Virus record (IMG/VR): IMGVR_UViG_3300014656_000015
Direction: 5' to 3' (one strand)
DNA: 64,000 bases
Source of the DNA: a virus
Shown here one piece after another: positions 33,668 through 61,038 of the stretch. Positions within the stretch are counted from its first letter, which is position 1. Each line of letters starts with the position of its first letter. Below the pieces are notes generated by a model, which was given only the letters and a program-made list of their open reading frames with translations, was not told where the DNA came from and made no database searches. A program made the position numbers and the translations under genes.

Positions 33668-34459
33668 TCAAGCCCTCTTGAAATGGAGATCTCCGGTCTC
33701 CTTGCTGGTGAGGGGGGCGAGTAGGATGCCGCCCTTCCTGGCAAGACGCTGACTATCGGCGCGGTCCATGATCATGGAGAAGGCTCGGCTCGTCAACTCC
33801 CGACCCAGCTGGGTCCGGGATGGCGGAACGTAGGCGGACCCGCCCGGCATTACCTGGGTGCTGGTGTAGAGATCGGTGCCTTTCGGTGCGATCTCCCGCA
33901 CAATTTCCTTGGCCTCGTCCTCCGTTACCCGCTCCGTCTTCATGCTCCGAGCCAGATGGGAGAGGGCGGTGGATCCGGCCCAGGTCCCGATGGTGCGGGT
34001 ACCGAGCTGGGCCACGGGGTGCAGCCGGGTCCTGGCCAGCACCGCTGCCAGCAGATCCATGGTGGGCGGGATCGCGTAGGTGCCCGCCATGGCCACGAGC
34101 TGGGCCCGTGCCTTAGTATCCACTGGACCCCGTGCCTTCAGTGCCCGGTACGCTTTGAGCGAGACCGTGGCCTCGTCCAGAACCCCGGGGATGGCGGCCA
34201 GTGCCCCGATGAGAGGCATGGTGGGACCCGGAGGGGCGCCGCCGCCCAGTGTGGATACGAGCTGGCCCGCGACGGTTCCGGTACGGGCCGAGCCCGAGAC
34301 GACTCGACCCACGTAGTGGAGCTTCGGTAATAGCTTCCCGCTCTCCGCGGCATGCGCCGCTTCGTGTGCTACCAGGGCGGGGGAGTACAGGGATTGTTCC
34401 GTCTCCACAGCGATCTTGCGGAGCTCGTCGGCAAAGCCTGCTGCGCCTACCCACTCCAT
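33668..34459 (-). CDS. putative packaged zinc metallopeptidase
   Basis: GFADELRKIA tag followed by AHEAAHA and a downstream DEA. Confidence 0.65.
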   Translation of the reverse strand: MEWVGAAGFADELRKIAVETEQSLYSPALVAHEAAHAAESGKLLPKLHYVGRVVSGSARTGTVAGQLVSTLGGGAPPGPTMPLIGALAAIPGVLDEATVSLKAYRALKARGPVDTKARAQLVAMAGTYAIPPTMDLLAAVLARTRLHPVAQLGTRTIGTWAGSTALSHLARSMKTERVTEDEAKEIVREIAPKGTDLYTSTQVMPGGSAYVPPSRTQLGRELTSRAFSMIMDRADSQRLARKGGILLAPLTSKETGDLHFKRA

Positions 34460-34474
34460 CGGCTCCGTTCCGGA

Positions 34475-37400
34475 TCAGATGACCAGCTCGAGGTCGATGC
34501 CGTTGAGTGGGCTCTTGACGCCAAGGTAGCAGGTGCCCCGGGCCCTGGTGGGATCCGTGGCGCTCTGCTCCAGGCTGTTGATCCGAGCCGTGTTCACCGC
34601 CTTCTTCTCGTCGGTCAGCCAGAGGCTCAGGCCCTCCGAGATCATGCTGAGCCCATCCAGGAACGCCTGCGTGATGTTGTTCCGACCAATGTACCGGCGG
34701 AGCCCGGCCCGGTAGAACTTGGCGCAGAAGTCGACCACCTTCACCACACTCTGCTCCCGGGTCTTCCAGGAGGTGGAGTCAGTTGTGACCTGATGCCTCG
34801 AGTAGACCGGACCCGTGTCCTCGCCGGCCTGGATAATGATGTCGGCGCCACCCGCCGCCATCTGGTTCATCTGCCTGCGGGTGTACCGATCCGAGGTTCC
34901 GGTTACCCGGGTGAAGCCCGCCATGGTCCGCTTGGTCAGCGGGGTGTCCGGGTCGAGCCCGGCCACCTGGCCCACCTTGGCCGCACAGGCGTAGAACCCG
35001 TCCACGGCTTGCTCCACGCCATCCACCGTGGCATAGAGCTGGTTCAGGTAGAGCATCCACATGCGCCGATCGAAGAAGCTGGTGCCGCGGTTATATACCG
35101 TGGTCACCTCGTCGTCCTTGTCCGAGATCGTGGCACCGCGCACCTTCACGCTGAAGCTCTCCGAGACCAGGGCAGCGGGGAAGGTGCCGGTGGCGTAGAA
35201 GCTGTCGTCGTTCTCGCCGGCTGCGAACACGATGTTGGTCTGCACGATGGTACCGCCGAGGATGGCCCCCGTGATGTTCCAACGATACGCATCGTAGGCC
35301 ACGTCCAGGAAGACGCCGTCGGACACGGCAATCGCGGTCGGATCGATGCCGAGCGCCTGCAGCGCAGCGGTCAGCGTCGGGATCTTGGTGTCGAACGTGG
35401 TCGTGGTCGGCACCGTGTCACCATCGTTGCCGCTGACCACGATCTCGTCCACCTTGCGCGTGGGCACCGCGAGGTGGAAGGCGCAGATCCGCTCCCCGCC
35501 CATGTCCGGGTCGCTCATCGCATCGACATGGGTCTGCATGATGGTGGCCACGTCGAGGTCGGAGCACATCGGTGCGATGCCGTAGACCTCCTTGGACTCG
35601 AGGAAGTCGAGGGCCGAGGCGAAGCCGGTTATGGTGCCGTCCGGCTTGTCCGCGGAAACCTCGTGCACCCCGAGCCCATAGATACGGGTATCCGGTGCGT
35701 TCAGCATGGCGATGTAGAGCCCGTAGGCCAGCGGGTTCTCCGGGGAGACCGGGGGCAACGCCGCCTCCAGCGCGTCGTAGCTGTCGAAGCCGTAGGTGGT
35801 TGGGTTCGTGGCCTGCGACGTCACGTCGGTCCGCAGTGCGTTGAACATGAGGTAGAGGTTGACCGCGACGGTGACGATGGGCTGGCCCAGGCTGTCCCGG
35901 AGGATGTCGTGCTTGATCCAGACATCGCCATTCGTGTCCACCATCAGATCCGGGGTCGGTACGGTCACACCCCACTGCGTGCTGCTCACCGCGTCCAGGT
36001 TCTTGGCAATGATGTACCACGTGGTGTAGGTGGCCGTGGTTGCCACCTCCCGATCCAGCTTCACGTACCCCGACACGGCCCCAGGGTGCGTCTCGATGAC
36101 GTAGCCGAGCAGTGCATTGTCCGCATAGAGCGCATCGCCTTGCCGCACGTTGAACGCGGTGCCGTAGTACGCACCTGCCGTCATGCCGAGCCCGTTCGGG
36201 GACGCGACGAGACCGGTCGATTCGGTGTGGAGCTCGATCTTGCTCTCGTAGCCACTCGTGGTCGACGTCAGCTTGACCAGGTTGGCGCCCGTGATCGAGG
36301 CGATGCTCGCCCCCAGCACGTTGTTGATCTGGGTCTCGATGGCAACGCGGGGACCCGCCCCACCGGTGGCCAGGAGCTGGGTATACGCGGTCACATGTGC
36401 ATTCAGGAACGCTTCGTTCAGTGAGTCCAGGGTGACCCGGATCGCGTTGTTCGGGTTGGCCGCGGCAGCCGCGGTCGGATCCGCACCGTAGACGAGTCCG
36501 ATGTAGTTGCCGGCCGGGGCCACGTTGCCGCTGGCGTCGGAGCGGAACGCGATGTTGACGCTCCACCATGCCTGGGACGCCACGTTGAGCTGAGAGATGA
36601 TGGCCGCGATGTCAGCGGCTCCCGCAACGGCACAGATCTGCGAGCTGCCGTTGACACTGATCGTGATGTTGGAGGTGTGCGGGAAGGTCCAGGCTGGGCC
36701 AGTGGAGTCCGTCGAGATGACCGGGTCGCCGCAGAGCGTGACGGTCTGCTTCCCGCTTCCGTCCACCTGAAGCACCAGGGTCTTGCCGTGCAGCGCCTTG
36801 CCCGTGCTGACATCGGTGGTACCCGTATGCGTCGCCGCACCCGGTGTAGCCAACAGGTTCTCGTTGAGGTCGAGGAGCGGGGTGAGCAGGTCCCCATCAC
36901 CGTCGTTGACGACCGTGATCGTGGAGCCGCGCCGCAGGAAGCTCTGGGTTCGCAGCGCCTCCAGGTTGTAGGAGGTCAGGTTCATGAAGGCCCGGATCGA
37001 GCTCTCGATGATGTCGCGCTGCGTCCCGAGGCTCTTCGGATCCGGGAAGCTGCTCTGCTTGAGCAGGATCTTGTCCTGGATATAGGAGCCCACCCCGTAG
37101 TAGGTGTAGCCCTTGCCGTACCCAAGCTGATCCGGGGCATCGAGCAGGGTCCCACCCACGATCTGGATCGTCTTGTCCGCACCGGTCCCCGTGGTTCGCA
37201 GCTGCAGGTAGATCTTGGCCGTGGCCGGATTGGTCCAGGTGTACGCGTAGAACCCGGAGGGGGCCACGGTAGCCGTGTTGATGGCAGCCGCCACCTGGGC
37301 CGCGGTGAGTGCCGCCGTGTTCGGCATGGTGAAGCTCTGCAGCGGACCCCCGTTGACCCGGAGCGTGAGCGTCTTCAGCGCCATCGCCGTGTACAGGGAC

Positions 37401-37606: not shown

Positions 37607-37622
37607 GTTGCACCTCTCCTGG

Positions 37623-38465
37623 CTATGGGCTTTCCAGCTGATCCGCTCCGATTACCAAGGTGACCGTGAACGGATCCGTGTCCATTGGCTCGACTTCCCA
37701 GTCCGCGCCCGGTTCCGTGTTGGGGCGCTTCCTACCTTGAGGAAATTCTACAGCACCGCCCCCGGCTTGCACATAGCCCGTACCACGACCCCCCATATTT
37801 ATCATGGGAGTGTGGCGCTGCGACGGGTCCGGGGCAGCGGTGAGCGCGAGCTCGATGCTACGGAGCACGTGCGTCATCTTTTCCGTAACGGTGACCCCGT
37901 AGTGAAAGGCCATCGGGGTGGCAATGTTGGTGTTGATCACCTCGGGCCAGGTCGCACCCTGCACGAGCTGACCCGGGTCCGAGGGTGGGTTCACCTGGAT
38001 GCGCTGCCCCACATCGTGAAACCCACACTTCATCAGGATCCTGCGGAGCGCCCAGAGATGGACCGCGCAGAACCAGGCCAGCATCATCGACTCGTATCGC
38101 TCCTTGGCCAGGCAGTTGACGAAGAGGTAGCCCGTACACAGGTCCACGTGGGTCCGCGCCCCCGTGCTCATTTGCTCGTACAGGAGCTGGTCCATGCCGA
38201 GCCCCTGGAAGCCGACCGCGGACACGTTGACGACGATGACCGGCATCTTTTCCAGGACCTCCTGGTTGACCGGGAAGTTGGAGGTGATGCGGAGCTCGGA
38301 CGAGGACTCCTCCCGGTTGAAACGGAACGAGCCTGGAGGCGCGGATTCGAACAGCTTCTGGAAGAACAGGATGGCGAGGCGCTCCGCGTGCAGGATGGGG
38401 TTGACGGCCCAGCTGCTGATCGGACCCGATGGTCGGTCCGGAGCCTCACCGATCTTCCCGGTCAC
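37623..38465 (-). CDS. putative tail completion/neck protein
   Basis: Upstream of the sheath; EKMPVIVV, NCLAKERYES pattern. Confidence 0.55.
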   Translation of the reverse strand: MTGKIGEAPDRPSGPISSWAVNPILHAERLAILFFQKLFESAPPGSFRFNREESSSELRITSNFPVNQEVLEKMPVIVVNVSAVGFQGLGMDQLLYEQMSTGARTHVDLCTGYLFVNCLAKERYESMMLAWFCAVHLWALRRILMKCGFHDVGQRIQVNPPSDPGQLVQGATWPEVINTNIATPMAFHYGVTVTEKMTHVLRSIELALTAAPDPSQRHTPMINMGGRGTGYVQAGGGAVEFPQGRKRPNTEPGADWEVEPMDTDPFTVTLVIGADQLESP

Positions 38466-38979
38466 GTCGCTCCTGTCCTTCCCGGTATGCCTCCTCCATG
38501 AGCTTCTTCTTTTGCTTCTGCATCTCGTGATACAGGAAGCCGGTCGCGGCCCCGCCGACTACGGGGAGACCTACGGCCAGTGCCTTGCCTAACCTGGAGG
38601 CTTGTGGCCGGGCATAGGGCTTTGCCAGCAGCTTGAGCGCACGATGCGCACCGTAGCCCAGTCCGGATCCGAGACCGATGACACCGGCGGTCAGCAGGGC
38701 CTGTCGCAGCGTGTCCCGGTTCATGGGTAGCGGATCCGGCAGCTCGGTCGCCAGCTTCCGGAGCTCGTCGGCGAAGCCGGCCGCCACGGGTCGTGCGAGC
38801 GCGCCGGTCTTCCGACGCTCCTCTTCCTCCCCCCTCTGCCTCAGCACCGCCGGGGCCTGCTGCAACGCCTCGGTCCCCAGCTCCTTCATTGGCTGCCGGG
38901 GAAGGTGCGGTAGCCGTAGATGAGGAAGGCCCCTGTATGAAGAGGGCCCGGGCAATGCCAGCTCTTCCAGGAGACGCAT
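38446..38979 (-). CDS. putative internal head protein with Gly-zipper helices
   Basis: GFADELRKLA tag followed by two GxxxG-rich hydrophobic segments. Confidence 0.65.
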   Translation of the reverse strand: MRLLEELALPGPSSYRGLPHLRLPHLPRQPMKELGTEALQQAPAVLRQRGEEEERRKTGALARPVAAGFADELRKLATELPDPLPMNRDTLRQALLTAGVIGLGSGLGYGAHRALKLLAKPYARPQASRLGKALAVGLPVVGGAATGFLYHEMQKQKKKLMEEAYREGQERRDREDR

Positions 38980-38984
38980 CGTGC

Positions 38985-39866
38985 TCACTGATTCCCCCAA
39001 CCCCGGAGCATGTGGTCGCACAGCACCGGGTCATCGGTGGCCTCCAGGCTGTGCGGGTTCGTGTAGGTCCGGGGTGGATTGGCCTCGAAGTTACGGATGT
39101 CGTCCAGGTTCACGGGCAGCCTGTACACGATGTCGGACTCCGGCAATTCGTGAATCACGAACTCCTGATGCAGTGTGGCCCGGAGCCGTTCCGTGCTGGA
39201 CAGGCTCGTCACCTCCCAGCGCCGATTCTCGGCCTCGATCAACACATCGTGTGGCTTGATCGGGGGAAAGAATGGCATGCGTCCCGTCGTGTTTCGCTCC
39301 TGCGTCTCCCCGGTTGACGTCATCCGAGTATGCTTCGGGCTCGGGTCGATCTGGAGCCGGCTCAGGATCGGGGAATGGTACCCACGCGTGAACCCCTTCC
39401 CGTAACAGGTCAAGCAGTTCGATCGTAGCTTGCTGCCGGTGACCGGGTCGTAGCAGTTGGGGCAGCGCTGACCAAAGGTCCGGACCGGGTAGACCAGGAC
39501 GGCTCGGCCAATGTATTCCTGGAACAGCAACGCCTCCAGCCGCCGAACCTCGATGGCCTCCAGGTTGGGCCGGGGCTCGCGGGCCGCGATGTCGGAGTAC
39601 GTCGTCTGGCTCGAGACGATGTGCCGGATCCGTATCCGGTAGAACAGGGTCCGCCACCGGTGAAAGGGGAGGGAGCGAATGTCCCGGTACTGGTACTTGT
39701 CCGAGAACTCCTGGCTGAGCTGGTCCCAGGGCCCGCCCGGGGACTCGCTACGTTCCACCACGAAGCCATAATCCAGCGGGTCCTCGACCGTGCTCTCGAT
39801 CTCCCAGAAGAGATCGAGGCAGTCCACGAGGAAGGATTTGACCCGGAGCTTTCGGACTACAAGCAT
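38985..39866 (-). CDS. putative neck/head-closure protein with Zn finger
   Basis: GQRCPNCYD...CLTCYGKGF..GY; located in the neck cluster. Confidence 0.65.
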   Translation of the reverse strand: MLVVRKLRVKSFLVDCLDLFWEIESTVEDPLDYGFVVERSESPGGPWDQLSQEFSDKYQYRDIRSLPFHRWRTLFYRIRIRHIVSSQTTYSDIAAREPRPNLEAIEVRRLEALLFQEYIGRAVLVYPVRTFGQRCPNCYDPVTGSKLRSNCLTCYGKGFTRGYHSPILSRLQIDPSPKHTRMTSTGETQERNTTGRMPFFPPIKPHDVLIEAENRRWEVTSLSSTERLRATLHQEFVIHELPESDIVYRLPVNLDDIRNFEANPPRTYTNPHSLEATDDPVLCDHMLRGWGNQ

Positions 39867-41173: not shown

Positions 41174-41174
41174 C

Positions 41175-44349: not shown

Positions 44350-45474
44350 CTAGTAGAAGTAGACCCTGGGGAAGTACACCTCGTCCTCGACCCGATGGTT
44401 CATGGCGCCGAGGTCTTCTTCGTCCACCGGTGTCACGGAGCCCGCCGCCACGATGCCGTCCGCGTCGGTAGCCGTGGCATCACCGCTGAACAGCTCCATC
44501 TTGCGGACCGAGGCCACGTTGATGATGGACATCGCGATGGTCTCCCAGGCCTGCCACGTGATCTGGTTGAAGTGCTTGTCGATGAAGAACTTGGTGGCGT
44601 TCAGCACGTAGAACCGCCCCAGGAACTCCTCATCGGTGAAGCCGTACACGTTGCCGGGCCGAAGGATGTCGGTCTTGATGGTGCGGATGTAGCCGCGACC
44701 CACGAGCTTCTCGTAGGTGTAGCCGTCCACCGCGGTCTCGCTCTGCAGCTTGTCGCCGAAGTCCTCGACGGTCCACGTGTTGATCGAGTCGAAGTCGTAC
44801 TCGGTCAGCAAGATGCGGGTGCAGCGGAGCTTGTTTCCGTCCAGCAGCTGATGCAGCCGGACCGCATCGTCCCGCTGGAACGGCCAGACCCTGGCGTCGT
44901 TGTTGATGTCGGCCCGGGCCAGGATGCCCTTGCGGACCGAGCTCTCGACCACGGTGCCCGCCGTGATCGTGGTCTCGTGGAGCGAGGTGACCGCGCCGCC
45001 GTTGGCCTCTTGCTGCAGGGCCTGGACCGCGGCCTCGCAGTGCGTGAGGAACTCGAGGTCTTCGACCTCCTGGATGTCCTTGGCCGAGTTGTCCTCCACG
45101 ACCTTGGTGATCTTCATCCGGTACGCCTGGAGCTCCTCCTCGTAGGCCTCGAACCGCTCCGACGAGATGGTCAGGAACGGGATCTCGACCCGGGGCGCAC
45201 GGATCAGCCGAGCGTCGGGCTGGCCGCGGAACGGCAGGACCATGGCCCGGCTCTCCGGCTCGAGCTGCTCGATGATGGTCAGCGTGTCCTGATGCACGCT
45301 GGGCTTGCACTCCTCCGGGGTCACGTTCTTCGGCTCGATGATCTTGCCGCAGAACCGCTCCTCACGGAGGTGGTCCCGGATGTACTCGCCGCCCAGCTGG
45401 GCATGCTTGGCCTTGCCCTCCGGGGTGTCGAGCTTGCCGAGGAAGTTCATGTTGTAGAATGTGACGTCGGACAT
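44350..45474 (-). CDS. major capsid protein (HK97-fold)
   Basis: 374 aa; IRDHLREERFCGKII, DIQEVED..FL; position after scaffold/decoration genes; strong RBS and terminator. Confidence 0.8.
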   Translation of the reverse strand: MSDVTFYNMNFLGKLDTPEGKAKHAQLGGEYIRDHLREERFCGKIIEPKNVTPEECKPSVHQDTLTIIEQLEPESRAMVLPFRGQPDARLIRAPRVEIPFLTISSERFEAYEEELQAYRMKITKVVEDNSAKDIQEVEDLEFLTHCEAAVQALQQEANGGAVTSLHETTITAGTVVESSVRKGILARADINNDARVWPFQRDDAVRLHQLLDGNKLRCTRILLTEYDFDSINTWTVEDFGDKLQSETAVDGYTYEKLVGRGYIRTIKTDILRPGNVYGFTDEEFLGRFYVLNATKFFIDKHFNQITWQAWETIAMSIINVASVRKMELFSGDATATDADGIVAAGSVTPVDEEDLGAMNHRVEDEVYFPRVYFY

Positions 45475-46381: not shown

Positions 46382-47461
46382 TCAGGCCCGGACCGAATCC
46401 GGATTGTGGTCTGCGGTCGGAGCGGATCCAGCCTGCCCCACCTTCCGCATCCCGAGCCTCGATGCTACCTTGCATGCCTGGCAGGGCTCGTTCGAGCTGT
46501 CCGTACTGCAGGTGCAGCCCCGGCTCGCCAGCTTCTGCAGGATCGACCGGGCCGCGGCCACCTTGGCCCCGGCTTCGTCGACCACATCGGCACCCAGCGC
46601 ATTGTCCAGCGTCTTGTCGGTGGCACTGGACATGGCGGGTTCCTCGAGCACCTCGCCCAACTGCTTCTTCGGCACTGCCATGGCCTCTGCCTTCGTGAGG
46701 TCGATCGCGGCCTCATTCGACTGCAGCGCCTTCTCCTGGCTCGTGACCTCGGCAGGACGCTTCACCTGATCCGGCTGGTCCTCAGGGAAGCCGGTGCCTT
46801 TCACGTGAGAGGTCTGGATGTCCGCGGCCTCGCTCTCCGCCGCGGCCTTACGGAGCTGCAGCGCGGCCCGCTTCATACGGGTCACGATGCTGCTCTCCTT
46901 GGTGCTGCCCTGGAAGTGGAGCGGGTTGGGCGGCATCTCGATCTCGGCGTCGGTCTTCGGACTGGCCGCCGCCGCAAGCGGGTTCGCACCGGGCTCCATC
47001 TTGTCGGACGGGCCCGGTACCTTGGCTTGCCCCAGCAGATCCTGGGGCATGGCCTCGGTGTGCGGCTGGTCATGGTCGGTGGGAATCGTGTTCGGGCCAT
47101 GCCCCGGGCCCGAATCGGCCCCGGCCTCCGTCGCCGTCTTCAGACGGGGGCCGGACGGGAACTGGATCCGGTGGAGGTGGTCCGCGAGGTAGGTCATGGC
47201 CCCGGCCAGCTTGGCCAAACGGGCCGAGCTGGTCTTCTCCTGCTCCGAGACCTGTTCCTCCCGAGCCTCATCCTTCACCTCTTTCTCGGCGCATTCCGCG
47301 CAGAGCTCTTTGCCCTCCACCGCCGGTCGGCCGCACTTCTTGCAGGTGGTAGCACCCTCCTGCGCATCGGCAGCATCTTCGGCGATCTTGGACAGACCAA
47401 TCGAGCCGCTCTCGTTGAGCGCGGCTTCGATCAGGTCCTTGATCGTGGGAGCTGGCATCAT
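46382..47461 (-). CDS. head scaffold/core-like protein
   Basis: Low-complexity sequence with many K-x-A sites and Cys pairs. Confidence 0.65.
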   Translation of the reverse strand: MMPAPTIKDLIEAALNESGSIGLSKIAEDAADAQEGATTCKKCGRPAVEGKELCAECAEKEVKDEAREEQVSEQEKTSSARLAKLAGAMTYLADHLHRIQFPSGPRLKTATEAGADSGPGHGPNTIPTDHDQPHTEAMPQDLLGQAKVPGPSDKMEPGANPLAAAASPKTDAEIEMPPNPLHFQGSTKESSIVTRMKRAALQLRKAAAESEAADIQTSHVKGTGFPEDQPDQVKRPAEVTSQEKALQSNEAAIDLTKAEAMAVPKKQLGEVLEEPAMSSATDKTLDNALGADVVDEAGAKVAAARSILQKLASRGCTCSTDSSNEPCQACKVASRLGMRKVGQAGSAPTADHNPDSVRA

Positions 47462-47473: not shown

Positions 47474-47755
47474 TCAGACTGCCTGCGGCGGTGGAACGGC
47501 GCCCTGACCCTGGGTCAGCGCGTTAGTCGTTCCGGGTACCTTGGTATGGACCGCCGTGTAGTTGGTCTTCTGGAGAGTGGTGCCCTGCAGCGCCTTCCCG
47601 ATCACCTTCTTCGCGGTGATCGGGGTGTTCTGCAGAGCGTTCTGACCACCGAGGAGCCCACCCGGAGTCGGAGGAGCCTTGATCGCGGGGCTGCTCACCG
47701 CCGCGATCTTCTCCAGCTCATCCAGGAATGCTCCCATGGTCACCATCTCCAACAC
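47474..47755 (-). CDS. small putative internal head protein
   Basis: GAFLDELEKIA tag near the N-terminus. Confidence 0.65.
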   Translation of the reverse strand: MLEMVTMGAFLDELEKIAAVSSPAIKAPPTPGGLLGGQNALQNTPITAKKVIGKALQGTTLQKTNYTAVHTKVPGTTNALTQGQGAVPPPQAV

Positions 47756-47762: not shown

Positions 47763-48644
47763 TCAGTCCGCCACCGGGTAGCCCAGGGAGGCCAGGTACT
47801 CGAGGGCGGCTCCCTCGATCCGGCTCTCGAAGTCGCCGGCCACCTTCTCCTGCTCCTGTGCCGGAGGCGGGGTGATGTTGCCGTTGACGTCGACCCAGCC
47901 CGCCTCGGCCAGCTTCTCGACGGCCTTGCGGGTCACCGCCTCCTCGATGGCCGAGCTCTTCTTCTCCCGAAGCGCCTGCACACCCCGGTAGCCACCGTAG
48001 CCAGCACCACCGACGGCTCCGGCGGCACCGACACCTGTGGCGACCTGGGAGCCGATACCAGCTGCCCTGGAAAGACGCTCGAGGCCCTTCCGGTAGGTGT
48101 TCCCACCCTTGGCAACGTCACCCTTGGCACCACCCAAACGGTGAATGATGGCCTTCTCGATATCGCTGAGGCCACCTTTGCGCCCACGCTCCGTCACGGC
48201 CTTCTCCGCAGCGGAGCCCACACGTCCCAGGGTTGACTCGTAGGCTTGACCCGGGGCCTTCTTGACCGCGGAGAGCGCCCTCCCGAGGCCACCCTTGACT
48301 GCCTGGTACGCGTCGCCGGCTCGGCCCGCCTCCTTCTCGATGTTGCCCAGCTCCTGGGTGAAGGCGTGGGCCATGACGCGTCCGCCGAAGTCGAACTCGG
48401 CGAACTTCTCGATGGCCTCCGGATCCGCCTCGCCCTCGGGGGCTGCTTCACCACTGTAGAGCTCGGAGGCGGTCTTCAGGATCTCCTCGTCCGAGTACTG
48501 CGAGAGATCGACGCCCTTGGCCGCGGCGTCCTCCGCCAGGAGATAGACCTGGGCCATCTTCTCCAGCTCGTCCTCGGTCGCGGCAGGGGCCTCGGCGGAG
48601 GCAGTCTTGGTCGTTCCGTACAACTCACTCAGAAACTGGTCCAT
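47763..48644 (-). CDS. head core/scaffold-like protein
   Basis: KTA, DELEKMA, KFA, KEA, KLA, KVA sites; Gly-zipper insert. Confidence 0.7.
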   Translation of the reverse strand: MDQFLSELYGTTKTASAEAPAATEDELEKMAQVYLLAEDAAAKGVDLSQYSDEEILKTASELYSGEAAPEGEADPEAIEKFAEFDFGGRVMAHAFTQELGNIEKEAGRAGDAYQAVKGGLGRALSAVKKAPGQAYESTLGRVGSAAEKAVTERGRKGGLSDIEKAIIHRLGGAKGDVAKGGNTYRKGLERLSRAAGIGSQVATGVGAAGAVGGAGYGGYRGVQALREKKSSAIEEAVTRKAVEKLAEAGWVDVNGNITPPPAQEQEKVAGDFESRIEGAALEYLASLGYPVAD

Positions 48645-51432: not shown

Positions 51433-51434
51433 GG

Positions 51435-51824
51435 TCAATACGCCATCCCTGTTCGTGGGTCCCAGAGCGCCCTGGTCTGGGCGACCCTGGCCTGGAACTG
51501 CCGCTTCTTGGCGCCGAGGTAGGCACCGACCGGATCATTCATGGCCTCGTTGGCCATGCCTGCACCGACAATGGGGGGTGCGGCCAGCACGGTGCCCGCC
51601 GCGATGGCCCCGGGCACGCCGCCGCCCGCCGCGTGGTACGCACCCTTGCCGGCGCCCATCGCGGCGCCATGCGCGGTGCGCAACGCGCCCTGGGCACCAC
51701 GCACCAGCTCCCGACCCGCCTCCGCGGCCACCCCAGCGGTCTTCGCCATGCCGAGATCCTGATCGACGAGCTGGCGCACCACGGCCCCGGTCAGAAAGAG
51801 CTGATCATAGTCGGCAAGCGTCAT
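51435..51824 (-). CDS. Gly/Ala-rich putative internal head protein
   Basis: AKTAG followed by a Gly-zipper; ATGA-coupled. Confidence 0.65.
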   Translation of the reverse strand: MTLADYDQLFLTGAVVRQLVDQDLGMAKTAGVAAEAGRELVRGAQGALRTAHGAAMGAGKGAYHAAGGGVPGAIAAGTVLAAPPIVGAGMANEAMNDPVGAYLGAKKRQFQARVAQTRALWDPRTGMAY

Positions 51825-52714
51825 GGCGCACACCTCTCTCGTAGCAGACCCTGCAGCTGCTCCCGCTGCTCCCCCAGCTTCTCCTTGGCCGCGAGCAGCG
51901 TGTAGTAGGAGCGGGCCGCTGCGGCAAACTTCTCGAAGCTGCGGCAGAGCGGGTGGGATCGGTCCAGGACGAGGTAGTCCGCACCGCTCCGACCCGCCTC
52001 CACCGATGGCACGTCGCGGACATGGGCCTGGACCTGCTTCAGGGCCAGCTTGGTCAGGGCCGGGGTCGGCGAGAGCTGGTCGAAGGCCACGCTCAGACTG
52101 GCCGGGCTCACCCCGTCCAGGATGGCCCGCCTCGACTCGACGCACATGTCCTCCGCCGCGTCCACGTAGGCCGCGTACTTGGACATGAGCTCGGAGCCGA
52201 CCACGTCCTCCGCCGTCTTGACCCGGGTCCACAGCACGAGCAGGTCCCGGTTCGGGGAACGGGGCGGGTAGTCGGCACCGGCCGACGCCCTCTTCTCCAT
52301 CTCGAGCGACTCGTCCTCGAGGAGAGCGCTCCCCGGCACGAACCGCTCGACGTCATGGAGGAGTCTGGCTGTCTTCATGATAGCCGCTCCTTCCTCTCCT
52401 GATGGCGTATCTGTCTCGAGCAGTGCGGCTACCCGGTGCGGATCCGCTGGCCCGCCCAGGAAGTCCACGACTCGATGCGATCCGGCCATCTTCGGAAACG
52501 CTGCGGCAAAGGCCGCGTTGTTCGTGAACTCGACGACACGCTGGACCTGTTCCCGTCCCAGGTCGTGTCCCCGGAGAACCTCGACGACGGCATCGGTCAA
52601 CGGCATCTCCCTTGATCCGTGCAGAGCAGCGGCCCGCTTCCCCAGACCTTGCAACACCCTTGGATCGACCGCTGCGGAACCAACCATGGAGATCTCTCCT
52701 GGCTCCAGGTACAC
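51821..52714 (-). CDS. putative head protein
   Basis: EQVQRVVEFTNNAAF; KTA, KRA, KFA sites. Confidence 0.7.
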   Translation of the reverse strand: MYLEPGEISMVGSAAVDPRVLQGLGKRAAALHGSREMPLTDAVVEVLRGHDLGREQVQRVVEFTNNAAFAAAFPKMAGSHRVVDFLGGPADPHRVAALLETDTPSGEEGAAIMKTARLLHDVERFVPGSALLEDESLEMEKRASAGADYPPRSPNRDLLVLWTRVKTAEDVVGSELMSKYAAYVDAAEDMCVESRRAILDGVSPASLSVAFDQLSPTPALTKLALKQVQAHVRDVPSVEAGRSGADYLVLDRSHPLCRSFEKFAAAARSYYTLLAAKEKLGEQREQLQGLLRERCAP

Positions 52715-55313: not shown

Positions 55314-55342
55314 CCCACCCGCCTCACTCCGAGGCAATTCCC

Positions 55343-57199
55343 TTAGGCCACTATACCCGGAGCGAACTCCACGCTGCCCGGGAAGAGTGGGATGATGATG
55401 TCGGGACGCGGCCGCACGATCATGCTGGCCAGGAAGCAGTAGAGGATGGAGTGGAACGTGTCATCACTCTTGCCTCGGGTCAGCTTGTACTGCGTCATGT
55501 GGAGCCGGGCATTGTACTCGGCAAAGATGTTCAGCATGTCGGCGGCGAAGGGTTCCTCCCACTCCTTCCAGGCCGGGAACCGGATCCGCTGGTTGCGGAT
55601 CGCGCTGAAGATGTCGCTCATGATCTCGGTACGGTGCAGCATGAAGCGGCCCAGCTCGGGCTCCCACTTGATCTTGGTCTTCGGGTTGCCCGTGTACTGG
55701 TACCGGGCGACCCGGGACGCACCGAAGTTCCGCATGAGCCAGTCATTGCGGTCGAAGCCGCCGCCGTAGTCCGAGCCCAGGATCTTGAAGTCAACCGCAT
55801 GTAGCAGCTTGGCGATGCGCCGGAGCTGGCGTCTCGGGTCCAGATCCTCCCCCACGAAGCGGTGTGCAAAGAAGATCTGGAAGATGCCGTCGATGTACCC
55901 ACCTAACGTAAGTAGTGAGAATGACGCATCTTCCCCGGTCCCGTGATCCAGTCCGGCAAAGACCCCGCTCTCGCACCGCTTCGCGGTCTCCAGCACCGCC
56001 CCGATCCGGATGGTCTCATTGCAGCACCGGATGATGTGGCTGCGCTTGAGCGGGCGCTGCCCCGCGTCGTGGGACAGCCCGAGCACCTCGTTGTTGAACT
56101 GGGTCTCGTCGTACTGTTCCAGGTGTGTCAGGATCTCGGTCCACTTCTCCCCTTGCATCCAGGGCACCATGAGCTGGGAGATGTGGTAGCCCTCGAAGGT
56201 GACCCGGTTCTCGTTGTCCGCGGTGACCGGCTGCAGCGAGACCCACTGCGCCAAGGGGTCGGCGGGGTCGATAGGTTCCCCGCACCGAGCACAGATCGGT
56301 CCCTCCTTGCCGATGTTCTTGATCCCGAGCAGGTTCCAGTGCCAGGAGGAGGGGTCGTTCGGGACGCCATGGTGCTGGCACGGCACGGCCCACTCGTTCT
56401 GGGTCGAGAACTCGGTCCAGTACTTGTGGATCGAGTTGTCCAGGCTCTTCGGCGTGCCAGCATAATCGAAGAGACCCCAGTGGGAGTGCGACGTGCACTG
56501 CTCGATGACCGGCACCGATGGGCCATGCACGTCCTGGAACTCGTCGATCTGAACCTTGTCGCTGGCAATGCCTCTGGCCCGGTCCGCGGAGAGGAAGGCG
56601 TAGCGCACCCGGACCTGGGAACGGTTCCGGAACTGCTTGAAGAACACGTTCTGGCTCAGGTTCCGGTTCACCATGTACTGGAGCTCGGGGCTGATCTCCA
56701 GCGGGTCCTTCAGCCGATCCACGCTGAAGACCTGGGCCTGGGCCGCGGTCGGGCACACATAGAGCGTCTTGAAGGCGGGCACGATGGCGCTGTACGCGAT
56801 GGCGCTGTTACCGAGGTAAGTCGACTTCTCGCTCTGCCGGCTGTAGACCAGGAGCTTGCGCCGGGCCGGGGAGTCGTAGACCGTCTTGAGGTAGCGCCGA
56901 CCCTCGAAGCTGAAGGGGGTGATGGCGCCCTCGATCGGGAGCTTGATGGCGAACTCGGTGAACTCGGACGGGGTGACCTCGACCTGGCGCAGCTTCCGCA
57001 GGGACTCGAGCTCCTGCTCGAACAGGATGCTCTCCATCTCGGCGCTGGCCAGCTCATCCTCCTCCTGTAGCAGGAGGGCCTCGAGCTCATCCTCCAATCC
57101 CTGGTCCAGCTCTTCCTGCGCCAGGACCCGTTTCGAGTCGAGGTAGAAGTCCCGGACCTCTTCGGAGGCAGCAGCCATCCCCTGCAGGACTTGAACCAT
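55343..57199 (-). CDS. terL: terminase large subunit (GpA-like); 5' end disrupted by an IS
   Basis: SRQSEKST Walker A variant, DRARGI, IDEFQD Walker B, GTPK, VPC Zn segment, AGLDHG nuclease motif, DDTFHS. Confidence 0.9.
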   Translation of the reverse strand: MVQVLQGMAAASEEVRDFYLDSKRVLAQEELDQGLEDELEALLLQEEDELASAEMESILFEQELESLRKLRQVEVTPSEFTEFAIKLPIEGAITPFSFEGRRYLKTVYDSPARRKLLVYSRQSEKSTYLGNSAIAYSAIVPAFKTLYVCPTAAQAQVFSVDRLKDPLEISPELQYMVNRNLSQNVFFKQFRNRSQVRVRYAFLSADRARGIASDKVQIDEFQDVHGPSVPVIEQCTSHSHWGLFDYAGTPKSLDNSIHKYWTEFSTQNEWAVPCQHHGVPNDPSSWHWNLLGIKNIGKEGPICARCGEPIDPADPLAQWVSLQPVTADNENRVTFEGYHISQLMVPWMQGEKWTEILTHLEQYDETQFNNEVLGLSHDAGQRPLKRSHIIRCCNETIRIGAVLETAKRCESGVFAGLDHGTGEDASFSLLTLGGYIDGIFQIFFAHRFVGEDLDPRRQLRRIAKLLHAVDFKILGSDYGGGFDRNDWLMRNFGASRVARYQYTGNPKTKIKWEPELGRFMLHRTEIMSDIFSAIRNQRIRFPAWKEWEEPFAADMLNIFAEYNARLHMTQYKLTRGKSDDTFHSILYCFLASMIVRPRPDIIIPLFPGSVEFAPGIVA

Positions 57200-57206
57200 G
57201 GTGCTC

Positions 57207-58418
57207 TCAGGTGAACACATAGCGGCCTGCTTCCTGTTTCGCAGAGGACAGTTTCACGACGGCCATCAGACCGACGTCAGCGCTCCCCTCTCCACAGGCT
57301 GTCACGGCACGGGCTGCCGCGATGTTTCTCAGGTTTACGGCGGCATTAACGTCGCGGTCATGGACGACGCCACACCCTGGACAGGACCACTTTCGGACGG
57401 ACAGCGGGAGGCTCTCGACAACGTGGCCGCAGTCGGAGCACATCTTCGACGACGGGAACCAGCGGTCAACCATGACAACCTCGGAACCTGCGAGCGGGGC
57501 CTTGTAGGTGAGCTGCCGCCTCATCTCCGACATGCTGGCATCGGCGACCGACTTGGCGAGGTGATGGTTCTTCAACATCCCGCTGACGTTCAGGTCTTCG
57601 ATGCCGATCCATCGGAAGTCTCGGACGAGCCGAGACGTCAGCTTGTGGGTCACGTCGCTTCGGATGTTGGCGATACGCTCGTGGACGCGCTGAATCCTCG
57701 CCTTCGTCTTGCGCCAGTTCTTTCCGCCTTTCGTCCGCCTCGACAACTCGCGCTGAAGTCGCTTGAGCCGCTTCTCATGGAACCGCAGGGCGCGCGGAGC
57801 TTCCACCTTCGCCCCGTCGGAGAGCACGGCGAGGTCTCGAACCCCGAGGTCTATGCCACACACCGCGTGAGTCTTGCAGGCGTGCGGGTACGACCAGCGG
57901 GAGTGATCAACCTCGACCTGGACGGAGACGAACCAGTGGTCGACGTGCTTCGTGAATCGGGCCGACAGCACCTTACCGGGGAATCGAAGCGTCTCCCTCA
58001 TGCGGAGCCAGCCGAGCTTCGGGACGCGGACACGACGGCCATCAAACGTCAGGGCTCGCGCCTCGATGGCGAACCCTTCAAGGCACCGCCCACGCTTCTT
58101 GAATCGAGGATACCCAGGCTTGGAGTTTCCAGCCTTGATGCGTCGGAAGAAGTGGCCGAAGGCAGCGCCGAGGTCAGCGAGTGCCTGGTTCGTGACCTTC
58201 CAGGGAAGCTCGGCCATCCACGGAAAGTCATCGGCCTTGCGGGCGTTCAACTCGGTGTTGAGCTGCTGCCACGACGGCTTCTCTCCGCCGTTGTAGAGTT
58301 CTTGCCAGCGGGCGAGGCCGTGGTTCCACACGAACCTCGCCGTCCCGGCGCACCGCTCGAAGAACGACGCCTGGACGTTGTTCGGATCGAGCTGAATACG
58401 CTGGCCGAGGATGGTCAC
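57207..58418 (-). CDS. tnpB: RNA-guided endonuclease TnpB
   Basis: GTARFVWN, PRFKKR, GIDLG, IEDLNV, SSKMCSDCG..CPGCG, DRDVNAA; RuvC D-E-D intact; GTG start overlaps the RHH stop. Confidence 0.95.
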   Translation of the reverse strand: MTILGQRIQLDPNNVQASFFERCAGTARFVWNHGLARWQELYNGGEKPSWQQLNTELNARKADDFPWMAELPWKVTNQALADLGAAFGHFFRRIKAGNSKPGYPRFKKRGRCLEGFAIEARALTFDGRRVRVPKLGWLRMRETLRFPGKVLSARFTKHVDHWFVSVQVEVDHSRWSYPHACKTHAVCGIDLGVRDLAVLSDGAKVEAPRALRFHEKRLKRLQRELSRRTKGGKNWRKTKARIQRVHERIANIRSDVTHKLTSRLVRDFRWIGIEDLNVSGMLKNHHLAKSVADASMSEMRRQLTYKAPLAGSEVVMVDRWFPSSKMCSDCGHVVESLPLSVRKWSCPGCGVVHDRDVNAAVNLRNIAAARAVTACGEGSADVGLMAVVKLSSAKQEAGRYVFT

Positions 58419-58552
58419 CGCTTTTTGTCCATCAGGTCGTGGAGGGCCATGCGGACGACTTCCCCCAGGGAGACGCCCAACCGCTTTGCCTCTAGACGAA
58501 GCCAGGCCAGGAGGGGAGGGTCGAGGTGGATTTCGAGTGGCTGTTTCCTCAT
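58415..58552 (-). CDS. CopG/ribbon-helix-helix protein (45 aa, not in the ORF track)
   Basis: MRKQPLEIHLDPPLLAWLRLEAKRLGVSLGEVVRMALHDLMDKKR; GTGA-coupled to tnpB. Confidence 0.75.
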   Translation of the reverse strand: MRKQPLEIHLDPPLLAWLRLEAKRLGVSLGEVVRMALHDLMDKKR

Positions 58553-58559
58553 GCTCAAG

Positions 58560-58588
58560 AGCATATATGCCAGTAAGGGCAATGTCAA
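58560..58588 (-). promoter_or_regulatory. sigma70-type promoter of the IS
   Basis: TTGACA-N17-TATGCT, 7 nt before the RHH ATG. Confidence 0.8.
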
Positions 58589-58644
58589 TAGCAATGTTCA
58601 ACTTGGCTGTTCTCAGGTGAACAGCCGAGGTCAGCTTGACATCA

Positions 58645-58683
58645 TTGACGAATACGGAGTTCGTCGATAGGGGATAGAGGCAT
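58645..58683 (-). pseudogene. probable original 5' segment of terL (MPLSPIDELRIRQ)
   Basis: Joins in frame to V57190 if the IS is removed at the TCAA junctions. Confidence 0.5.
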
Positions 58684-58686
58684 GGT

Positions 58687-58732
58687 ACCAAAGTCCGGGG
58701 TGTCCTGGGTATAAGGTCTGGACGGAAAGGAG
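58687..58732 (+). promoter_or_regulatory. ATAAG-class promoter plus RBS
   Basis: ACCAAA-N17-TATAAG...GGAAAGGAG. Confidence 0.75.
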
Positions 58733-58738
58733 ATCTAG

Positions 58739-59516: not shown

Positions 59517-59558
59517 GGGACGGAAGGAGGACTGGGGGGTCCTCTACTTAGCTCAGTA

Positions 59559-60800
59559 CTAGATCTCTCCGGCTTCGAACGCTTTGAGGATACGTTTCCG
59601 TGTCCCCGGTGTCGGGGTCTGACCATAGACAAAACCGAAGGGGCTGAGCGTCTCCACTTCCCCTGTCCGAAGTTTGAGCATTCGCTCCCGCACCTCCGGA
59701 GGAAGCGTGGCAAGACGTGTACTTTCTCGCATCAGCACTTCAGGACTCTGGTGTACGCCCCGCACGACATGGCCCTTCTTTTTTGGTAAGGCGCGCAGCA
59801 GAGCAGAGGAGGAGAACGGACCCAACGCCACTCCTTCTTCAGCAAGCTGCGCAATCTGAGGGCGCATACGGTGTAAATAGGCACCCTCCACTCTTTCCTT
59901 CAAGCCTTCGACCGGTTTCTCCACCACCCAATCCTTGCCGAGGGAACCGGTTCTTGAGAGCGCCTGGCCCTTGATCACGGCCTCGTCCATTTCGTGAGAA
60001 CGAAGCAGAGCGTCAAGGCTTTCCCTGCTCTGACCACCAACATCCCGTAGCATCGGACTCACAGACGGTGCTTCTATCGTCACCGGACGGTGGCCGACAA
60101 CAAGGGGTGCCCCTCCCACATTGATCGTCACGGGTCGAACCCCGGACATGTACCCCTCACCCATGCGAGCCAGGCGAAGCTGCTCCCCGACCTCCTTGGC
60201 TCGAGATGGCTGCCCCATCAGTTTCTTGCCCAGCTCACCACCCAGCTCACGAACAGACGGCTGCAGCCGATCCACTCCATGCCTCTCCGCCAAGCCCTGG
60301 AGACCCCTATGGATACCCCTTGTCTCCTTGCCGTAATCCAGAACCCCATGCTGAAGCAACCGACTCACGTCCTCCGCACCGAGTTGCCCCGCCCGCAAGA
60401 CGCGCTTCCACGCTGCCAACGCAGCTTTCTCCATGCCTTCACCAGCTGCTTTCCCCATCGCATCCCGATTGGTACGGGCCACGGCACGCTCCAACGCGGT
60501 TCGTTCCTGGTGAAGGGCTGGTGCGGAGGCACGACGTAGATTCGGAGCGCTACGTGCCGCGGCACGATTCAGGAGCCGCAACGCGGCCGGCGGCGGGTAC
60601 ATCGCTGTGGTGAGCGCGATCTTCTCCAACTCGTCACAGAAACCGTAGGCACGAGCCGCCTCCTTGGATCGGACGCGCTCCGGCAGCTTCTCGTCCTTGG
60701 GGGTGTGCCGCTCCCACTCCTTCACCACACCGGGCTCGATTTCACCTCGGGCCTTGGCTGCGTGGAAGAAGCGGCGTTGGGCCTCCGATTTGAAAGGCAT
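59559..60800 (-). CDS. putative internal head protein
   Basis: MPFKSEAQRR...KLPERV module, GFCDELEKIA tag, SHEMDE motif. Confidence 0.7.
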   Translation of the reverse strand: MPFKSEAQRRFFHAAKARGEIEPGVVKEWERHTPKDEKLPERVRSKEAARAYGFCDELEKIALTTAMYPPPAALRLLNRAAARSAPNLRRASAPALHQERTALERAVARTNRDAMGKAAGEGMEKAALAAWKRVLRAGQLGAEDVSRLLQHGVLDYGKETRGIHRGLQGLAERHGVDRLQPSVRELGGELGKKLMGQPSRAKEVGEQLRLARMGEGYMSGVRPVTINVGGAPLVVGHRPVTIEAPSVSPMLRDVGGQSRESLDALLRSHEMDEAVIKGQALSRTGSLGKDWVVEKPVEGLKERVEGAYLHRMRPQIAQLAEEGVALGPFSSSALLRALPKKKGHVVRGVHQSPEVLMRESTRLATLPPEVRERMLKLRTGEVETLSPFGFVYGQTPTPGTRKRILKAFEAGEI

Positions 60801-60804
60801 CGCC

Positions 60805-61038
60805 TCACCCCCGTGTAAAGGTCGTGTCCACACTCCGCATCGGGGGAGCTGACGATGGTGTTGCCGCGTACCGACTCTTCCGGAGCAGCAAGCGTTCGAT
60901 CTCCTCCTGGGTTTTCCCGCTCGGTACGGGCCGGGCCGGCGCCCGCCGAATCACACTTCCGAGACCGGCCGGGGGCCGGGTCACCAGCGCGATCTTCTCC
61001 AGCTCGTCACGGAACCCATTCAGGACTGCGGGATGCAT
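60805..61038 (-). CDS. small putative internal head protein
   Basis: MHPAVLNGFRDELEKIA. Confidence 0.65.
   Translation of the reverse strand: MHPAVLNGFRDELEKIALVTRPPAGLGSVIRRAPARPVPSGKTQEEIERLLLRKSRYAATPSSAPPMRSVDTTFTRG

What the first reader, a model, noticed from the sequence alone, without database searches (positions are those of the whole stretch)
33668..61038. Portable F-x-D-E-L-x-K-[IL]-A tag on unrelated proteins: candidate capsid-targeting and cleavage signal
Seen: GFADELRKIA (34409-34438), GFADELRKLA (38749-38778), AFLDELEKIA (47702-47731), GFCDELEKIA (60615-60644) and GFRDELEKIA (60988-61017), with variants EDELEKMA, AFTQELGNIEKEA and FLADEDLEKRA. The codons differ synonymously, so selection acts on the protein. 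The sequence after the tag is different each time (peptidase, Gly-zippers, short basic peptides). Shorter K-x-[AG] sites are dense in head-region ORFs. Established: T4 internal proteins use an N-terminal capsid targeting sequence removed by the prohead protease. Inference: a modular load-and-release system in which the tag docks cargo into the prohead and the 48715-50964 protease cuts at K-x-A, delivering effectors on infection. It could be engineerable for protein delivery.
Basis: partly seen in the sequence, partly recalled or inferred. Interest (0 to 1): 0.85.

Follow-up and report, generated by a model that had tools for sequence, protein, structure and literature searches.

The report
Shared N-terminal address tag, phage head
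Five unrelated proteins of this uncultured ~200-kb phage carry the same nine-residue tag (F-x-D-E-L-x-K-I-A), which marks a whole phage clade and most likely loads proteins into the capsid and is trimmed by the head protease, as phage T4 does with a different tag, though no cut or packaging has been measured.

Summary
Observation confirmed. F-x-D-E-L-x-K-[IL]-A occurs five times in the window, all in minus-strand ORFs whose remaining sequences are unrelated (about 1e-4 copies expected).

The tag is a signature of one phage clade. A DNA-pattern scan of IMG/VR gave more than 119 stretches.
- The tag lies within 15 residues of the ORF start in 65 of 132 cases, against 1 of 92 for the reversed motif.
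- 38 of 49 tag-bearing contigs encode this window's capsid-protein family, against 0 of 49 control contigs.
- Tagged proteins fall into about 116 unrelated clusters, including SNF2 helicases, MazG, GNAT and pyrophosphatase enzymes.

The 749-aa ORF starts with a T4 gp21-like head protease domain (Z 6.2, invariant His and Ser). The tag's core, K-(I/L/V/M)-A, is enriched 3- to 6-fold and positionally conserved in the protease, scaffold and two other head proteins. It is not enriched in the terminase or tail-region proteins. T4's own L/I-x-E code gives the same pattern.

Best reading (about 0.5): a T4-CTS-like capsid-loading tag ending in a lineage-specific protease site. Cleavage, packaging and delivery are inferred, not shown.

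This is a new variant of a known kind. The scan noted the same E-K-x-A code before in another 197-kb phage (e1-5804088).

The parts
34409..34438 (-). Tag copy 1 (GFADELRKIA), residues 8-17 of ORF 33668-34459 (263 aa). An invariant HExxH follows at 34352-34366.
   Evidence: (21.2 bits)
38749..38778 (-). Tag copy 2 (GFADELRKLA) in ORF 38446-39021. The cargo has two Gly-zipper hydrophobic helices and belongs to the commonest cargo family (10 members). In relatives the Phe sits at residue 7-16; the start codon here is ambiguous.
47702..47731 (-). Tag copy 3 (AFLDELEKIA) at the N-terminus of a 93-aa Pro/Gly/Lys-rich protein (47474-47755, likely start 47737). The gene lies between the scaffold-like gene and the 359-aa head protein and is conserved in close relatives.
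   Evidence: (26.7 bits)
60615..60644 (-). Tag copy 4 (GFCDELEKIA) in ORF 59559-60833 (likely start 60800). It follows a ~50-aa KSEAQRRFF...HTPK..LPERV module and precedes a 350-aa domain of unknown function.
60988..61017 (-). Tag copy 5 (GFRDELEKIA), residues 8-17 of a 77-aa basic orphan ORF (60805-61038).
   Evidence: 23.5 bits
48715..50964 (-). 749-aa head protease. The T4 gp21-like domain is about residues 40-290 (50095-50964), with invariant H132/H133 and S189. It is followed by a Gly-rich linker and a conserved C-terminal domain. That domain carries a tag-like [EL]-L-x-K-[IVM]-[GSA] at 49006-49032, conserved in 12 of 12 relatives.
47763..48644 (-). 293-aa scaffold-like protein with conserved E-K-hydrophobic-Ala sites at 48552-48575, 48327-48365 and 47835-47852. 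The central site is a canonical tag in some relatives.
46382..47461 (-). 359-aa acidic head protein with Cys pairs and six positionally conserved K-hydrophobic-Ala/Ser sites, including an N-terminal tag-like GLSKIAED (47375-47398).
51821..52714 (-). 297-aa conserved head-module protein with conserved K-hydrophobic-Ala sites (5.3-fold enriched in relatives).
44350..45474 (-). Major capsid protein. Its N-terminus carries EGKEK-IA in 17 of 26 relatives, but KAKHA here (45397-45420).
55343..57220 (-). Large terminase subunit. It serves as a context marker and as a negative control for the K-hydrophobic-Ala motif (0.76-fold).

Best explanation
The tag is this clade's counterpart of the T4 capsid-targeting sequence.

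A short amphipathic helix, [small]-F-x-D-E-L-x-K-I-A, usually starts 3-10 residues after the initiator Met. It is appended to otherwise unrelated proteins.

It copies a segment that the prohead core proteins carry themselves. These are the scaffold-like 293-aa protein, the 359-aa protein and the C-terminal domain of the protease. I infer that tagged proteins are therefore co-assembled into the scaffolding core of the prohead.

The tag ends in K-(I/L/V/M)-A. I infer that this is the recognition site of the phage's T4 gp21-type serine protease. After assembly the protease would dismantle the core and trim the tag. The cargo would stay in the head and leave with the DNA at infection.

Shown here:
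- the tag, its N-terminal position and its portability;
- its restriction to phages with this head module;
- the protease fold and its conserved Ser and His;
- enrichment and positional conservation of K-hydrophobic-Ala in head-core proteins only.

Inferred: docking, cleavage and the exact scissile bond, presence in virions, and ejection.
For: (1) Five copies against about 1e-4 expected.

(2) N-terminal bias. Across IMG/VR, 65 of 132 tags lie within 15 residues of the first possible start codon. For the reversed-motif control the figure is 1 of 92.

(3) Portability. 159 non-redundant tagged ORFs fall into 116 BLAST clusters. Pfam domains begin a few residues after the tag. Cargo includes SNF2 helicases, MazG, GNAT with glyoxalase, and InPase.

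(4) Coupling to the head module. 38 of 49 tag-bearing contigs encode this MCP family, and 9 of 11 among those at least 90% complete. Of 49 control contigs, none does. There are 3-9 tags per genome, mostly near the head genes. In the window there are none in 1-33 kb and five in 33-61 kb.

(5) Protease. The model matches T4 gp21 (5jbl_A) at Z 6.2, rmsd 3.6, 128 residues aligned; the next chain scores 3.7, and herpesvirus proteases also appear. H132/H133 and S189 are invariant. S189 aligns to T4 gp21 positions 140-141 (…GVSS), which I recall, unchecked here, as the catalytic Ser140 region. tblastn hits a Gordonia phage 'capsid maturation protease'. Inteins sit at the His motif and near the Ser in two relatives.

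(6) K[ILVM]A code. In the window's head proteins 16 are observed against 3.6 expected; in non-structural proteins, 4 against 4.8. In relatives the enrichment is protease 3.3x, scaffold 5.1x, p359 5.6x, p297 5.3x and MCP 3.7x. Terminase is 0.76x and the 1043-aa protein 0.94x. The sites are column-conserved.

(7) Positive control. T4's known [LI]-x-E code gives gp22 2.8x, gp21 2.7x and gp68 2.5x, against terminase 1.2x.

(8) T4 precedent for a CTS on diverse internal proteins (PMC3012670; Mullaney & Black 1996, cited in PMC10052503).
Against: - There is no proteomic, structural or genetic datum for any tagged protein. No cultured phage carries the tag. The nearest cultured relative, Salmonella phage Arash, lacks it in the last 50 kb of its genome that I scanned (130820-180819, which includes its head module); the other ~131 kb was not examined.
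- The window's own MCP lacks the K-hydrophobic-Ala site that most relatives have.
- The enrichment counts in relatives are inflated by shared ancestry.
- About a quarter of the tags are internal, for example after the KSEAQRRFF module. This fits a cleavage or linker site as well as it fits an address.
- The protease assignment rests on a model of mean pLDDT 67, a moderate Z and no Pfam hit.
- A K/A-type site would be a large change from the Glu-specific T4 and phiKZ-type proteases.
- Several cargos are small membrane-like proteins that could act elsewhere.
Confidence: 0.5

Rival explanations
1. The motif is only a protease processing site, with no address function. Tagged proteins would reach the prohead, or meet the protease, by other means. 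The conserved F-x-D-E-L part would then be just an extended substrate-recognition sequence, for example for timed activation or removal of pro-forms such as the HExxH protein.
For: The K-hydrophobic-Ala core is shared with many internal sites in head proteins. Some tags are internal, lying between modules. The HExxH motif starts about 15 residues after the tag, which would suit a pro-enzyme.
Against: A pure cleavage site does not explain the strict near-N-terminal position, 65 of 132 against 1 of 92 in the control. It also does not explain why nine residues are conserved when the head-protein sites conserve only three or four. In T4 the same short peptide does both jobs.
Confidence: 0.17
2. 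The tag is an uncleaved docking helix for another shared partner, such as the portal, the 359-aa or 297-aa head protein, a phage chaperone or the virion RNA polymerase. It would recruit proteins to a complex without proteolysis.
For: The tag has amphipathic helix character, with F, L and I on one face, and was modelled as a helix at low confidence. The same motif is conserved in the scaffold and in the protease C-terminal domain, which must bind partners.
Against: It does not explain why the short K-hydrophobic-Ala core alone is enriched many-fold at many positions in exactly the proteins that a prohead protease normally degrades.
Confidence: 0.15
3. The tag is a membrane-targeting, secretion or degradation signal unrelated to the capsid. 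Many cargos have Gly-zipper or hydrophobic helices.
For: Gly-zipper and transmembrane-like cargo is common.
Against: Soluble enzymes such as SNF2 helicase, MazG, GNAT and InPase carry the same tag. The motif also sits inside the scaffold-like and protease proteins. The tag is acidic and amphipathic, not signal-peptide-like. It is tied to one capsid lineage across GC 0.34-0.70, and so probably across different hosts.
Confidence: 0.05
4. The copies arise by chance, or are a remnant of recent paralogous duplication.
For: Some pattern hits outside the clade are chance. Two hits look like transketolase-type proteins and one like a terminase by eye; none was run through a family search.
Against: Five copies against 1e-4 expected. 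Codons differ. Cargo parts are unrelated. The tag is conserved in relatives whose MCP is only about 30% identical. The forward-versus-control contrast is 38 of 49 against 0 of 49.
Confidence: 0.02

Closest known systems
Phage T4 capsid-targeting sequence (CTS, MKTYQEFIAE) on internal proteins IPI-III and Alt, removed by prohead protease gp21 (PMC3012670; Mullaney & Black 1996)
   Same: Both are short N-terminal peptides shared by otherwise unrelated, fast-evolving proteins. Both phages have a gp21-fold protease encoded beside scaffold and MCP genes. In both, the tag ends in the short motif that is also over-represented in scaffold and core proteins.
   Different: There is no sequence similarity. 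The presumed site is K-(I/L/V/M)-A rather than (L/I)-x-E. The tag starts 3-10 residues after the Met rather than at it. The protease carries a ~450-aa C-terminal extension. There are more cargo families, including large enzymes. Nothing has been tested experimentally.
Proteolytic maturation in phiKZ-like giant phages (SPN3US gp245, motif A-x-E; PMC10052503, PMC7411985)
   Same: A T4-type protease trims N-terminal propeptides from many head and ejection proteins. The protease has a C-terminal propeptide. Some propeptides are short (20-24 aa).
   Different: Those propeptides are mostly long (111-254 aa) and share no portable tag. The cleavage motif is different.
Phage P1 Dar system (DarA, DarB, Hdf; PMC9024508, PMC12810830)
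   Same: Large enzymes, including a helicase/methylase, are packaged in the head and injected for counter-defence. The tagged SNF2 helicases here would be analogous.
   Different: As far as I recall, P1 loading depends on an ordered protein hierarchy, not on a common short tag. I did not check this in the papers.
Encapsulin cargo-loading peptides
   Same: A short portable peptide directs unrelated cargo into an HK97-fold shell.
   Different: Those peptides are C-terminal and are not cleaved, and encapsulins are not viruses. Here the genome encodes a terminase and a prohead protease, and the tag is N-terminal.
   Same: It reports the same Glu-Lys-(Ile/Leu/Val/Thr)-Ala signal in head-assembly proteins together with a T4-type protease.
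   Different: It concerns a different genome. This report adds the full nine-residue tag, its clade-wide distribution, the controls and the cargo census.

Membership tests
T4-type capsid-targeting-sequence (CTS) system | The same short N-terminal peptide sits on otherwise unrelated proteins | tested here: met
   Five ORFs in the window. 159 tagged ORFs form 116 clusters. 65 of 132 tags are N-terminal, against 1 of 92 in the control.
T4-type capsid-targeting-sequence (CTS) system | The phage encodes a gp21/assemblin-fold prohead protease in the head module | tested here: met
   5jbl_A at Z 6.2, rmsd 3.6, 128 aa, next chain 3.7. Invariant His and Ser. Gene order is protease, scaffold, MCP. Strength is moderate: model pLDDT is 67.
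T4-type capsid-targeting-sequence (CTS) system | The tag ends in the protease's cleavage motif, which also recurs in scaffold and core proteins | tested here: inconclusive
   K[ILVM]A is enriched 3- to 6-fold and column-conserved in head-core proteins only, like [LI]xE in T4. No cleavage has been observed.
T4-type capsid-targeting-sequence (CTS) system | Tagged proteins are in the virion, with the tag removed | not testable with these tools
   No cultured clade member and no proteome.
T4-type capsid-targeting-sequence (CTS) system | The tag is sufficient to load a foreign protein | not testable with these tools
   This needs an experiment.
T4-type capsid-targeting-sequence (CTS) system | Sequence likeness to the T4 CTS and a Glu at P1 | tested here: not met
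   The tag is F-x-D-E-L-x-K-I-A. Glu before Lys is frequent but not required, as in LSKIA, GAKVA and LQKLA.
Peptidase S77 (T4 gp21) sequence family | Match to the Pfam or PHROG protease model | tested here: not met
   No Pfam family at E<0.01, and only a weak unknown PHROG. PDB profile search found nothing. hhalign against T4 gp21 gave low probability.
Peptidase S77 (T4 gp21) sequence family | Catalytic Ser and His conserved | tested here: met
   H132/H133 and S189 are invariant in 12 divergent relatives. hhalign places S189 opposite T4 gp21 positions 140-141 (…GVSS); that this is T4's catalytic Ser140 is my recollection, not checked here.
Encapsulin cargo-loading peptide | C-terminal uncleaved peptide on the cargo of a non-viral nanocompartment | tested here: not met
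   The tag is N-terminal. The genome has a terminase, a T4-type prohead protease and a phage MCP; the portal lies outside the window.

The most novel reading that the evidence does not exclude
The nine-residue tag is a clade-wide, sequence-readable address for injected proteins in a large, uncultured, globally distributed group of ~180-210-kb RNA-polymerase-encoding phages. In this reading the protease itself is the receptor. Cargo, scaffold and the protease's own C-terminal domain would all dock through the same [D/E]-E-L-x-K-I-A helix in its substrate groove. One Lys/Ala-specific T4-fold protease would then both load and release a swappable arsenal of enzymes (SNF2 helicases, MazG, GNAT, pyrophosphatases, an HExxH protein). 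This would give a new cleavage specificity and a predictable catalogue of early-acting effectors.
Probability: 0.15. Interest if true: 0.75.

Novelty: new variant of a known kind. Interest (0 to 1): 0.6.

Why it matters
If the reading holds, a nine-residue string would be enough to list the proteins that a whole uncultured clade of ~200-kb phages packs into its heads and probably injects. Host take-over and counter-defence factors are expected in that set, so it would give a direct catalogue of candidates. Those already seen include SNF2 helicase, MazG, GNAT, InPase and HExxH proteins.

It would also add a second, sequence-unrelated example of the T4 load-then-trim logic, with a different protease code. 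That bears on how prohead proteases change specificity. It would also offer another small tag for loading foreign proteins into capsids in laboratory phage work.

If the reading fails, the tag is still a sharp marker for this clade and a conserved short linear motif that needs an explanation.

Tried and rejected
- Full-text literature searches for the motif strings found nothing relevant. The single hit was a protein-design paper.
- tblastn of a 21-aa tag peptide against cultured phages gave no match.
- Cultured relatives are distant: Salmonella phage Arash and Vibrio phages D69, D181 and D148, with MCP about 27% identical. The last 50 kb of Arash has no tag and only a weak K-hydrophobic-Ala signal, in gp225. 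Its published virion proteome lists 116 proteins without N-terminal peptide data, so it could not be used.
- Pfam and PHROGs gave nothing for any of the five tagged ORFs, the scaffold-like protein, p359 or p297.
- Foldseek against PDB gave no significant match for the protease model. Only VIA-align singled out T4 gp21.
- The HExxH cargo gave a low-confidence model (pLDDT 60). Fold and Atlas searches returned only generic helical bundles, so 'peptidase' stays a motif-level guess.
- FLADEDLEKRA at the start of ORF 50968-51438 is rejected as a tag copy.
- I considered a retained Glu-P1 specificity, with the cut after the E preceding K. I rejected it because many conserved sites lack that Glu.
I compared the properties of the hits instead.
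Full report
**What the window is.** It is a GC-rich (about 64%) piece of an uncultured large phage. No whole genome is held for it. Most genes run on the minus strand.

Recognisable genes:
- a large terminase subunit at 55343-57220 (phrog_675, E 8e-54);
- a major capsid protein at 44350-45474 (phrog_2522);
- a helicase, a C5 methylase and a TnpB in the rest of the window.

The nearest cultured phages are distant. They are Salmonella phage Arash and Vibrio phages D69, D181 and D148, with MCP about 27% identical. Earlier notes of this scan place a fused RNA polymerase just beyond the window's end, also Arash-like.

**The observation.** From the amino-acid composition of the window's proteins, about 1e-4 such matches are expected.

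The DNA of the five copies differs at synonymous positions. The sequences after the tag are unrelated to each other. A profile built from tag instances scores the five at 20-27 bits, and nothing else in the window scores above 3.5 bits.

After choosing plausible start codons, the Phe lies at residue 4-9 in three ORFs. In the 424-aa ORF it lies about 54 residues in, behind a separate KSEAQRRFF module. Its position is uncertain in ORF 38446-39021, whose relatives have it at residue 7-16.

**The tag is a clade-wide feature.** Twenty-one IMG/VR loci related through the 749-aa protein also carry the tag. GC ran from 0.24 to 0.70. Many stretches came from 100-210-kb contigs, and several contigs had 2-4 copies.

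The extended consensus is hydrophobic-x-hydrophobic-[A/S]-[A/S/G]-F-x-D-E-L-x-K-I-A, with no conservation downstream.

Two controls make this more than a count:
- The reversed motif gave 92 stretches, each with a single copy, mostly on ordinary 10-50-kb contigs. Only 1 of 92 reversed matches lies within 15 residues of an ORF start, against 65 of 132 forward matches.
- 38 of 49 forward contigs encode a homologue of this window's MCP, many at E below 1e-100, and 9 of 11 among contigs at least 90% complete. None of 49 reversed-control contigs does.

The forward contigs without the MCP are mostly fragments or evident chance hits. Two such hits look like transketolase-type proteins and one like a terminase by eye; none was run through a family search.

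Complete genomes of the clade are 186-209 kb. They carry 3-9 tagged ORFs each, mostly near the head genes.

**Cargo.** 159 non-redundant tagged ORFs fall into 116 BLAST clusters, with a median cargo length of 116 aa.

Where Pfam recognises the cargo, the domain begins a few residues after the tag:
- two SNF2 helicases;
- a MazG-like protein;
- a GNAT plus glyoxalase protein;
- an InPase pyrophosphatase, which also occurs behind the KSEAQRRFF module.

In the window, the 263-aa cargo family has an invariant HExxH and Glu, but no fold or family support. The commonest cargo family is a small protein with two Gly-zipper helices.

**The protease.** The N-terminal ~290 residues of ORF 48715-50964 are conserved in 12 divergent relatives, with invariant H132/H133, S189 and an FFD-S-V-FIGAD strand.

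An AlphaFold model was built from that alignment (mean pLDDT 67; the core scores 80-95). Its best match among 48,161 PDB representatives is T4 gp21, 5jbl_A, at Z 6.2, rmsd 3.6 Å and 128 residues. The next chain scores 3.7. Varicella-zoster virus and human cytomegalovirus proteases also appear.

hhalign against T4 gp21 is weak. It nevertheless places S189 opposite T4 gp21 positions 140-141 in AGWIPGVSS; that this is the catalytic Ser140 region is my recollection, not checked here. tblastn links the domain to Arash gp222, Bacillus phage G gp19 and a Gordonia phage 'capsid maturation protease'.

Two relatives carry inteins, one inserted at the His motif and one about ten residues after the Ser. 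As far as I know, inteins typically sit at active sites of essential enzymes.

The remaining ~450 residues are a Gly-rich linker and a conserved C-terminal domain.

**A short code in the head proteins.** The tag's last three residues, K-(I/L/V/M)-A, occur 16 times in the window's eight head-module proteins, against 3.6 expected from per-protein shuffles. The corresponding figures are 4 against 4.8 in 18 non-structural proteins, and 3 against 3.0 in the downstream structural block.

Enrichment in homologues from relatives (no more than 70% identical to the window):

| Protein family | Enrichment |
|---|---|
| Protease | 3.3x |
| Scaffold-like | 5.1x |
| p359 | 5.6x |
| p297 | 5.3x |
| MCP | 3.7x |
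| Terminase | 0.76x |
| 1043-aa protein | 0.94x |

They are not independent, because homologues share sites.

The sites are column-conserved:
- three in the scaffold-like family; the central GR-x-MAH-[A/S]-[F/Y]-x-[D/Q]-E-L..K-x-A is a canonical tag in some lineages;
- six in p359, including an N-terminal tag-like site;
- a [E/L]-L-x-K-[I/V/M]-[G/S/A] site in the protease C-terminal domain, in 12 of 12 relatives;
- EGKEK-IA near the MCP N-terminus, in 17 of 26 relatives, though not in the window's own MCP.

As a positive control for the method, T4's known gp21 code [L/I]-x-E is enriched 2.8x in gp22, 2.7x in gp21 and 2.5x in gp68. It is only about 1.2-1.4x in the terminase, sheath and portal.

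**Interpretation.** The anatomy matches T4's system point for point (PMC3012670; PMC10052503 and its reference 30):
- a short N-terminal peptide on diverse proteins;
- a gp21-fold protease beside the scaffold and MCP genes;
- a short motif common to the tag and the core proteins.

I therefore read the tag as a capsid-loading address that ends in the protease site. Confidence is about 0.5 for the whole chain. It is higher for 'head-associated signal' and lower for the exact cut.

The scissile bond is unknown. A retained Glu-P1 specificity is unlikely, because many conserved sites lack a Glu before the Lys.

The main rivals are a cleavage-only site, an uncleaved docking helix for another partner, and a membrane or degradation signal. 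They are listed with their tests in the Rival explanations section. None explains the N-terminal bias, the nine-residue conservation and the head-protein enrichment together as well as the main reading does.

**Novelty and limits.** The mechanism class is known from T4, and more loosely from phiKZ-like phages and P1. I found no literature on this tag, on this apparent K-hydrophobic-Ala code, or on the clade that carries them.

The scan had already noted the E-K-x-A code in another 197-kb phage (e1-5804088). I re-tested that idea here on this genome and its relatives. Everything beyond sequence statistics and a moderate fold match remains inference.

Noticed in passing
window 57207-58691 (-): A TnpB/IS605 OrfB-type gene (OrfB_IS605, Cas12f1-like TNB and HTH domains) abuts and overlaps the 5' end of the terminase gene (55343-57220).
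   Followed up: partly
L002:8700-11729 and L005:9857-12982: Two relatives have inteins in the head protease. One carries Hint and LAGLIDADG domains and is inserted at about residue 199, near the catalytic Ser. The other is inserted at about residue 130-175, at the His motif.
   Followed up: partly
window 60645-60800 (-); also L057, L030, L100, L034, L084, L065, L127, L125, L072: A ~50-aa N-terminal module (M-P-F-K-S-E-A-Q-R-R-F-F ... H-T-P-K-D..L-P-E-R/K-V) precedes the tag on proteins with different C-terminal domains, including an InPase. One 64-aa ORF consists of the module plus the tag alone. The module is not in Pfam. It may be a second portable unit.
   Followed up: partly
L094:5376-7902 (-): A tandem array of five or six small ORFs, all starting M-I-D/N-F-S/T-A-F-x-D-E-[FLM]-x-K-I-A. 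It resembles the hypervariable internal-protein loci of T-even phages.
   Followed up: no
window 49800-50000, 47900-48100, 38500-38700 (-): Gly-rich hydrophobic (Gly-zipper-like) segments recur in the protease linker, the scaffold-like protein and the tagged cargo. Their role is unknown.
   Followed up: no
window 1342-3348 (-): A 668-aa protein matches phrog_1735 (unknown function) end to end at E 1e-259. This is an unusually strong match for this otherwise orphan-rich genome.
   Followed up: no
window 19613-20848 (-): A 411-aa protein has a C-terminal DUF6745 domain (E 2e-55).
   Followed up: no
L079:4908-5855, L114:7832-8947: Two proteins that look transketolase-like by eye (not run through a family search) contain F-x-D-E-L-x-K-I-A, apparently by chance. 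A bare pattern scan therefore gives some false positives outside the clade.
   Followed up: partly
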